Source: Eledone cirrhosa
Lineage: Eukaryota
Direction of reading: 5' to 3'
DNA length: 64,000 nt
Assembly (NCBI GenBank): GCA_964016885.1
Contig: OZ024755.1
Span: 19,406,001 to 19,470,000 of the forward strand
Below the pieces are notes generated by a model. It did no database searches, was not told the origin of the DNA, and saw only the letters and a program-made list of their open reading frames with translations. How positions within the stretch are numbered: the first letter of the stretch is position 1; each line of letters begins with the position of its first letter. The translations under genes were made by a program, and so were the position numbers. Positions 36,387 to 36,575 of this stretch are shown here, one piece after another.

Positions 36387-36391
<5 letters not shown>

Positions 36392-36575
36392 AACGAGTAG
36401 GACCCCGACGGCTGAGCTCAAGCCGTTTCGACGGCTAATTCTGGAGATTAGCCGTCGAAACGGCTTGAGCTCAGCCGTCGAGGTCCTACTCGTTCCTATT
36501 ACCCACTCTACTACCCTAAGTATTGAGTACTTTGGTGCGTTATGGTCCACCTGGTTCCTTACTACATTTCCTTCG

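What the first reader, a model, noticed from the sequence alone, without database searches (positions are those of the whole stretch)
36387..36499. 'Palindromised' hammerhead: 3' half copied back over the CUGANGA half
The right arm reads stem II (GACGGCTA...TAGCCGTC)-GAAA-CGGCT TGAGCTC AGCCG-TC-GAGGTCC, i.e. GAAA box, 5-bp stem III, GUC triplet and a stem I strand. Where CUGANGA should be, the reverse complement of GAAA-stem III-UC is found. The same half motif recurs at about 9130-9175, 17920-17965(-), 32965-33000 and 44095-44135. Inference: fold-back template switching during reverse transcription converts ribozyme-bearing ends into palindromes, a possible origin for the many hairpins here.
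Basis: inference. Interest (0 to 1): 0.7.

Follow-up and report, generated by a model that had tools for sequence, protein, structure and literature searches.

The report
Head-to-head Penelope stub with half-hammerhead
This DNA palindrome is one of tens of thousands of short leftovers of a known kind of jumping gene (a Hydra-clade Penelope-like retrotransposon): two truncated copies of its end sit head to head in a TA repeat, and they carry only half of a predicted self-cutting RNA, likely because the element's RNA starts in the middle of that ribozyme.

Summary
The palindrome is real: 53-bp arms with one mismatch. It belongs to a 187-bp insert in (TA)n whose right arm carries an extra 80-nt tail. 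An exact 23-mer of the arm occurs 53,660 times in the genome. Long copies lead to a 3.5-kb RT–GIY-YIG element with Hydra-clade motifs.

The arm is a true hammerhead 3' half. Parents supply stem I, a covarying stem II and a core that is mostly UUGANAA (U3–A8, about 5,100 copies) or CUGAGAA (mismatched, about 1,570), and canonical only in older subfamilies. U3–A8 needs two origins on the tree.

Fold-back copying is disfavoured: 82 of 91 pairs join one tail-less to one tailed arm, either arm can be longer, and some junctions have opposed untemplated A-runs. In an unselected sample, 67 of 84 arms stop within about 17 nt at a TTAGTY box in loop II. A second family stops at the same box placed upstream of its ribozyme. 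The box is likely the transcription start, so CUGANGA was never in the template (untested: no RNA data).

The layout is published, and this scan noted it before on other DNA.

The parts
36343..36389 (.). (TA)n target, left
   Evidence: sequence
36390..36444 (-). Tail-less arm: inverted 5'-truncated copy of the element end, from the short 3' end (E1) back to position +4 of the TTAGTC box; carries GAAA, stem III, GUC and stem I 3' strand on the minus strand
   Evidence: (56 nt match to parent L063)
36445..36446 (.). Head-to-head junction (AG; either untemplated or part of a tailed arm with a 1-nt deletion)
   Evidence: junctions differ from locus to locus
36447..36496 (+). Tailed arm, hammerhead 3' half: stem II 3' strand 36449-36456, GAAA 36457-36460, stem III 36460-65/36473-78 with palindromic loop, predicted cleavage after C36479, stem I 3' strand 36480-36484 (A36481 private change), short end E1 at 36496
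   Evidence: for A36481
36497..36576 (+). 80-nt tail between the two fixed 3' ends; in a full-length copy (L063) it continues into the 5' UTR and ORF; holds a CTCTAC bulged hairpin at about 36505-36528
   Evidence: hairpin is the MFE of 36500-36535 but not better than shuffles (z -0.18)
36577..36620 (.). (TA)n target, right
   Evidence: sequence
9120..9234 (+). Older tailed copy of the same family, about 77% identical
17889..17971 (-). Older tailed copy (about 81%), followed by a short inverted remnant ending in (TA)n
32961..33017 (+). Solo tail-less copy between two (TA)n runs, starting at +5 of the box
44026..44225 (+). Second head-to-head palindrome with tail, sister subfamily; tailed arm starts at the TAGTCC box
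48667..48788 (+).
   Evidence: read by eye

Best explanation
The palindrome is a head-to-head insertion of two 5'-truncated copies of the end of a Hydra-clade Penelope-like retroelement in (TA)n, likely made as two separately primed cDNAs that both ran off the 5' end of the element's RNA, which is predicted to begin at a TTAGTY initiator inside hammerhead loop II. Shown: family membership, the RT-GIY-YIG parent, two fixed 3' ends 80 nt apart, one of each per palindrome, a sharp 5' boundary at the box, and a complete hammerhead fold in long copies with C3-G8, C3.A8 or U3-A8 cores. Inferred: the endonuclease nicks both strands of (TA)n; each nick primes reverse transcription at one of the two internal start sites (as measured in vitro for the Poseidon element PAc); at the 5' copy of these sites only about 58 or 138 nt of RNA lie upstream, so both cDNAs run off, often gain untemplated As or are trimmed, and are joined end to end. 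The CUGANGA half lies upstream of the RNA start and so is absent from the template; long copies with the whole ribozyme would come from the same start sites in the downstream pLTR. Odds: Hydra-clade PLE stub 0.95; two separately primed cDNAs 0.8; boundary = transcription start 0.6.
For: Family size: 53,660 exact 23-mer matches, control 0. Parent: L063 has inverted tail-less copy, direct partial pLTR, tail, ORF, 1.2-kb 3' UTR, pLTR end, tail, (TA)n; ORF matches about 700-aa homologues over their whole length (tblastn E 1e-120 to 1e-135), one with Pfam RVT_1 E 9e-6; C-terminal domain aligns to I-TevI GIY-YIG (Z 8.8, rmsd 2.4-2.7, 89-95 residues); Hydra diagnostics RW(R), DKT, CxCX5C, CxxC/CxH present. 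One-tail rule: 82 of 91 pairs in selected loci, 36 of 36 palindromes in 60 regions taken in genome order. Tail-less arm longer 31, tailed longer 29, equal 22, including 823 vs 256 and 1024 vs 109 nt. Opposed A-run/T-run junctions with no loop (L006, L124, L210 among 18 junctions). Boundary: 84 of 91 arms reach +6..+11, 17 reach -6..-17, 15 reach -60..-75. AGT is conserved inside the otherwise variable loop II in 17 aligned copies (G 90%+, T invariant). Second family: of 10 short arms that include its core, 5 end at +1/+2 of TTAGTT, 4 at +6..+8, 1 at -5 (by eye). Literature: two RT start sites bracketing the tail, both strands nicked and extended (PMC11167929); internal promoter with Inr in the Penelope pLTR (PMC2377424).
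Against: No RNA evidence for the start site. YAG|T also fits a 3' splice site, and Penelope has an intron ending at its ribozyme. Many arms stop 2-11 nt short of the box rather than on it, and a few short arms pass it by templated sequence (L227, L229; probably L241, L029, L115). Deletions at a hairpin centre after insertion could make unequal arms or tail-only partners from a fold-back product. 2 of 91 pairs had two tailed arms and 7 were ambiguous. Pfam found nothing on the element's own frames and the PDB sequence search with the alignment found nothing; Foldseek's best GIY-YIG hit had E 0.3. Rfam does not call this hammerhead. The second family's parent ORF was not traced.
Confidence: 0.65

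Rival explanations
1. Same element and same two cDNAs, but the boundary is not the transcription start: reverse transcriptase stalls at the top of stem II or at a bound protein, or the YAG is a 3' splice site or other processing site.
For: The boundary lies just past the stem II 3' strand; all subfamilies have YAG|T with a U-rich run before it in most; in D. virilis the intron end maps to the ribozyme (PMC4209133); many arms end at +2..+11.
Against: In the second family the boundary follows the TTAGTT box although it lies upstream of the whole ribozyme-like fold. Arms keep the AG of the box, which a splice junction would remove. Long A-runs at the box look like template-end stutter. Once past the box, only 2 of 17 arms stop in the next 60-70 nt, which includes the stem II 5' strand and core.
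Confidence: 0.22
2. Fold-back or self-priming: one cDNA folds on itself and is copied back, replacing the CUGANGA half (the first reader's model; close to the self-priming model proposed for rotifer Penelope palindromes).
For: Near-perfect palindromes with 0-7 nt centres and microhomology at many junctions; self-priming was the published reading of such junctions (PMC3846280).
Against: A copy-back of the tailed cDNA cannot give a longer tail-less arm (31 of 82 pairs, some by hundreds of nt) and should run through the tail instead of stopping at the same base; a copy-back of the tail-less cDNA cannot give the tail. Opposed A/T runs without a loop need two cDNA 3' ends. Six of 64 insertions pair a complete tail-less arm with only a piece of tail (by eye), and short-read contigs show many such joints. 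Solo arms stop at the same boundary with no copy-back (L226, L240).
Confidence: 0.1
3. A non-autonomous fold-back DNA transposon (MITE-like) or a fixed palindromic master element that moves as a unit.
For: Very high copy number, about 190-bp size, TA flanks.
Against: The inverted repeats are not terminal (one-sided tail); centres differ between loci; the same ends cap long RT-GIY-YIG copies; no transposase in the parent; arm mismatch is a random point change.
Confidence: 0.03

Closest known systems
Hydra clade of endonuclease-bearing Penelope-like elements (Craig et al. 2021, PMC8557442; read: passages, section 11, supplement part 2 of 59 and found passages), e.g. Hydra-1_Obim, Hydra-1_Amil, Penelope-13_HM
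   Same: RT then C-terminal GIY-YIG, DKT, CxCX5C linker, CxxC/CxH around the catalytic E and N, (TA)n target, hammerhead near the 3' end, inverted 5'-truncated copy at the 5' end, one-sided tail. Core/stem II junction (core-G ... C-GAAA) resembles Hydra-1_aMil and Penelope-2_NV.
   Different: Different family from Hydra-1_Obim (its published ribozyme sequence is unrelated). Unit about 3.5 kb with a 1.2-kb 3' UTR versus usually under 3 kb; tail 80 nt versus 30-40; loop II about 40 nt; main cores are U3-A8 or C3.A8, not canonical; most copies are about 190-bp double stubs.
Poseidon PAc of Anolis (Frangieh et al. 2024, PMC11167929; read: parts 1-2 of 4 of the main text)
   Same: Two internal RT start sites that bracket the tail, AT-rich target nicked and extended on both strands, ribozyme upstream of the start sites.
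   Different: Other clade; in PAc the ORF starts within the ribozyme, here it starts about 170 nt after the short end; the paper does not address head-to-head stubs in the parts read.
PLE hammerheads with U3-A8 core in Schistosoma Cercyon elements (Cervera and De la Pena 2014, PMC4209133; read: parts 1-2 of 4)
   Same: U3-A8 covariation, long helix II with an unpaired base at its 5' end, short helix I, palindromic loop 3, motif pairs on opposite strands 100-700 bp apart.
   Different: Here stem III is 5-6 bp (monomer-capable on paper), the mismatched C3.A8 state is itself an amplified subfamily, and U3-A8 needs two origins.
Drosophila virilis Penelope internal promoter (Schostak et al. 2008, PMC2377424; read: passages)
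   Same: Promoter and RNA start inside the pLTR, upstream of tail and ORF, Inr-type.
   Different: Start site is mapped there, only inferred here; no intron was demonstrated here.

Membership tests
Hydra-clade PLE | Single ORF, RT followed by C-terminal GIY-YIG endonuclease | tested here: met
   YRDDGL RT motif then EN in L061/L063/L064; full-length tblastn to homologues, RVT_1 in one of 30 aligned; I-TevI fold Z 8.8. All six copies read have frameshifts, stops or truncation.
Hydra-clade PLE | RWK motif and DKG changed to DKT | tested here: met
   LRWRTFF (RWR, conservative variant) and SDKTGN in L063 frame against the definition
Hydra-clade PLE | CxCX5C linker; CxxC and CxH flanking catalytic E and N | tested here: met
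   CNCPDGSIC, CNLC, CKH in L064
Hydra-clade PLE | Insertion in (TA)n; pLTR tandem, inverted truncated copy, one-sided tail | tested here: met
Hydra-clade PLE | Canonical hammerhead in the pLTR | tested here: inconclusive
   Canonical core in older subfamilies (9 of 13 hits; more) but U3-A8 or C3.A8 in the abundant ones
Hydra-clade PLE | Phylogenetic placement with published Hydra RTs | not tested
   Compared only by eye with the proteins printed; no tree built
Type I hammerhead ribozyme (long parent copies) | Stems I, II, III around core, GAAA and NUH | tested here: met
   72% of cells paired, covariation 0.209, 1 of 500 shuffles as high, slid controls 0.03-0.15 (stem III and part of stem I were fixed by the search pattern, and six D-type rows are one column out of register in stem II); stem II consensus pairs 9/9 within subfamily C versus 5-6/9 across; constrained fold within 0-1.3 kcal/mol of MFE in five of eight U3-A8 examples
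Type I hammerhead ribozyme (long parent copies) | Watson-Crick pair between positions 3 and 8, free position 7 | tested here: met
   5,113 U3 copies, 98 of 100 listed U3-A8, all four bases at position 7; not met in the 1,568 C3 copies, 99 of 100 listed C3.A8
Type I hammerhead ribozyme (long parent copies) | Self-cleavage after GUC | not testable with these tools
   needs an in vitro assay
Type I hammerhead ribozyme (the window's palindrome itself) | CUGANGA strand and stem I 5' strand present | tested here: not met
   absent on both strands of 36387-36576; no Rfam hammerhead hit in the window
MITE / TIR DNA transposon | Terminal inverted repeats at both ends and a constant interior | tested here: not met
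   one-sided tail, variable centres
MITE / TIR DNA transposon | Target-site duplication | tested here: inconclusive
   hidden in (TA)n flanks

The most novel reading that the evidence does not exclude
This Penelope-like lineage starts its RNA inside its own hammerhead, so the 5' copy is a half-ribozyme that cannot cut and most insertions are joined pairs of run-off cDNAs, mapping the transcription start from DNA alone; and the ribozyme's 3-8 core pair was broken (C3.A8) in an actively spreading lineage and re-formed as U3-A8 twice, a natural sign that cleavage matters in vivo although it is dispensable in vitro.
Probability: 0.42. Interest if true: 0.55.

Novelty: new member of a known kind. 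Interest (0 to 1): 0.36.

Why it matters
The layout itself is ordinary for Penelope-like elements. Two things here bear on open questions about that class. First, how the head-to-head inversions form has not been settled: self-priming was proposed in 2013, while two internal start sites and two-strand priming were shown in vitro in 2024. Tens of thousands of stubs with a one-tail rule, unequal arms and a sharp 5' boundary give a cheap genomic test that favours separately primed cDNAs and predicts an exact RNA start. Second, the role of PLE hammerheads is unknown; a subfamily series C3-G8, C3.A8, U3-A8 with two compensations offers matched natural variants for cleavage assays. Practically, it also explains a large share of short TA-flanked hairpins in this genome and warns that hammerhead searches with CUGANGA miss the dominant form.

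Tried and rejected
Arm asymmetry (GGGG left, GAGG right in the first loci) looked like evidence for a fixed palindromic master; it was selection bias from my query (236 vs 14,129 matches, both tail classes). My early estimate that about 98% of copies are truncated was wrong, because the dominant U3 cores were missed by the exact 21-mer; in the unselected sample 16 of 64 insertions or arms were long. The canonical cores in the two youngest C3 subfamilies are rare single changes (2 matches vs 990; 4 of 100 listed). About a third of the 57 hits are chance cores made by a mutated inverted arm and were left out of the alignment (17 rows kept). The first tree (54 rows) had truncated rows with long branches and was rebuilt with 39 of 111 segments, which dropped the C3-G8 outgroup, so the root rests and on branch lengths. 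The loose matcher over-extended arms into partner sequence, and the -120..-140 window gave false positives; both were set aside. Rfam gave no hammerhead in the window or in L070. Pfam on the element's frames, PDB sequence search and Foldseek were blank or weak. RNA run search: no RNA holder listed; the four runs are contigs of unknown kind from one study and cannot show RNA starts. Ribozyme cleavage as the cause of the boundary was rejected: the predicted cut is about 41 nt 3' of it. A downstream promoter element at +28..+33 matches only partly (consensus recalled), so it is not used. Paper searches for data on a G8A change found nothing; its likely loss of activity is recalled, with G8C/C3G data.

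Full report
OBSERVATION. Window 36387-36499 is a palindrome with 53-bp arms, one mismatch and a 5-7 nt centre; it folds at z = -16. It lies between (TA)n runs, and the right arm continues for 80 nt before the second run. The window is G000:C15:19406001-19470000 of a 3.0-Gb genome; I guess a cephalopod from size and repeat content, untested.

FAMILY AND PARENT. An exact 23-mer of the arm has 53,660 matches, control 0. In 30 best loci the outer ends are fixed and the centres vary. One of the 30 (L017) had long arms; its upstream sequence is itself a repeat, and the 30 loci fetched with it run into the same 3' end, ending either at the short end E1 or 80 nt later (the printout was cut after 25 rows). 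Six 10-kb stretches show an ORF with an RT motif and a C-terminal endonuclease. L063 is a full-length copy: inverted tail-less copy (4154-4370), direct partial pLTR, tail, ORF from about 5138, 1.2-kb 3' UTR, pLTR end, tail, (TA)n. Homologues of about 700 aa (137 hits) match the ORF end to end; 1 of 30 aligned proteins has an RVT_1 hit and 1 a weak GIY-YIG hit; the predicted C-terminal domain aligns best to I-TevI (Z 8.8), though Foldseek alone was weak. The motifs that define the Hydra clade are present. Craig et al. describe the inverted truncated copy and one-sided tail as standard and list one octopus Hydra family with a different ribozyme. Their figure S7 was not seen.

IS IT A HAMMERHEAD HALF? 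Yes. Long copies read ACCCC, a 7-nt core, G-N-Y-CGGCTA, a loop of about 40 nt, TAGCCG-T-C, GAAA, stem III, GTC, GGGGT. A pattern demanding a canonical core and this stem III gave 57 hits, control 0; 17 aligned copies from six subfamilies give covariation 0.209 against shuffled 0.164 (1 of 500) and slid controls of at most 0.145. That test is inflated for stems fixed by the pattern and deflated by a register shift in stem II. Stem II, which was not constrained, pairs 9/9 within subfamily C and 7-8/9 within A and B, but 5-6/9 across C and A/B. Core counts with like patterns: U3 5,113, of which 98 of 100 listed are U3-A8 with all four bases at position 7; C3 1,568, of which 99 of 100 listed are C3.A8; subfamily C is canonical in 9 of 13. 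In 60 regions taken in genome order (first 66 clusters, less 6 already held; one chromosome end only), 15 of 16 long arms are U3-A8. On a tree of 39 segments with positions 3, 7 and 8 masked, U3-A8 needs two changes and one clade is rejected (p-AU 1.65e-5); both groups sit among C3.A8 rows. The direction depends on a root supported only and by longer terminal branches in the C3.A8 rows. U3-A8 covariation is already known from Schistosoma PLEs. That C3.A8 cleaves poorly is recalled, not found in the library.

HOW THE PALINDROME FORMS. Among 91 inverted pairs in loci L001-L158 and the window, 82 join a tail-less to a tailed arm, 2 join two tailed arms, 7 are ambiguous; the tail-less arm is longer in 31, shorter in 29, equal in 22 (selected loci, a few may be duplicates). 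In the genome-order sample, 36 of 64 insertions are short palindromes and all 36 have exactly one tail; six more pair a tail-less arm with only a piece of tail (by eye), and short-read contigs of one study show many such joints. Three of 18 junctions with both arms reaching the box show an A-run facing a T-run with no loop. Simple fold-back of either cDNA cannot supply sequence that only the other arm has, although later deletions at the hairpin centre could mimic some cases. The pattern fits the in vitro result that a Penelope protein nicks and extends both strands and starts at two internal sites bracketing the tail. Self-priming is the published alternative.

WHY THE CORE IS MISSING. Numbering the A of TTAGTC in loop II as +1, 84 of 91 arms reach +6..+11, 54 reach +2..+5, 17 reach -6..-17 and 15 reach -60..-75; the selected set gives 135, 79, 11 and 10 of 157. 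So four fifths stop within about 17 nt and few stop in the next 60-70. The AGT is conserved in an otherwise variable loop. Long untemplated runs abut it. A second, unrelated family with the same anatomy has TTAGTT upstream of its whole ribozyme-like motif, and its short arms stop there (5 of 10 at +1/+2, 4 at +6..+8, 1 at -5, by eye). The box resembles the TCAKTY initiator (consensus recalled), and D. virilis Penelope has an internal promoter with an Inr in its pLTR. I therefore infer run-off to the RNA 5' end (0.6). A stall or a splice site remains possible, and no RNA data could be had.

COMPARISON AND NOVELTY. A new family of a known clade with a known insertion layout. Searches for Penelope with twin priming, octopus plus hammerhead, U3-A8, and strong-stop (listings only, open-access library) showed no paper on a start-site boundary or on repeated compensation; this is not proof of absence. 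The 2026 retrozyme preprint was seen as passages only, its supplements closed. After my reading was formed, the scan's notes showed the same layout and Hydra assignment on other DNA of this and other genomes; one note gave the CTCTRC tail hairpin, which is present in both families here but does not beat shuffles.

VERDICT. Observation confirmed; ribozyme half right; fold-back mechanism disfavoured. Interest 0.36, most of it from the testable start-site boundary and the core compensation series.

Noticed in passing
window 59290-59398 and 39085-39162; L061:4330-4500: Second repeat family with the same anatomy (head-to-head arms, about 100-nt one-sided tail, TA target) and a compact hammerhead-like motif with a CAGAAGA core (U4 changed to A) in all long copies seen; parent ORF not traced.
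   Followed up: partly
L061:3048-3741: 700-bp palindrome of a third family with a canonical hammerhead in both arms (Rfam RF00163, 30.3 bits, E 2.3e-5); an older Hydra-type ORF fragment lies upstream at 1269-2557.
   Followed up: partly
window 19884-20100 and 38677-38990: Other TA-flanked hairpins that are dispersed repeats, the first with a one-sided extension; compatible with further Penelope-type ends, not tested.
   Followed up: partly
window 16830-16977, 23138-23596, 26869-27249: Further inverted repeats of non-simple sequence; origin not examined.
   Followed up: no
window 61684-62968: Tandem array of 28-34 bp units followed by its own inversion.
   Followed up: no
window 10149-10454, 22605-22916(-), 63500-63811: Three 96-97% identical copies of a 300-bp repeat with a tRNA-like head, probably a SINE.
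   Followed up: no
L193, L194, L197: Three subfamily C copies share CTGATAA, suggesting a separate loss of G8 in that older lineage.
   Followed up: no
L271/L272: One insertion with a U3.G8 wobble core on both arms, on a long branch.
   Followed up: no
window 36505-36528: CTCTAC bulged hairpin about 10 nt into the tail; the same hexamer lies at a similar place in the second family's tail.
   Followed up: partly
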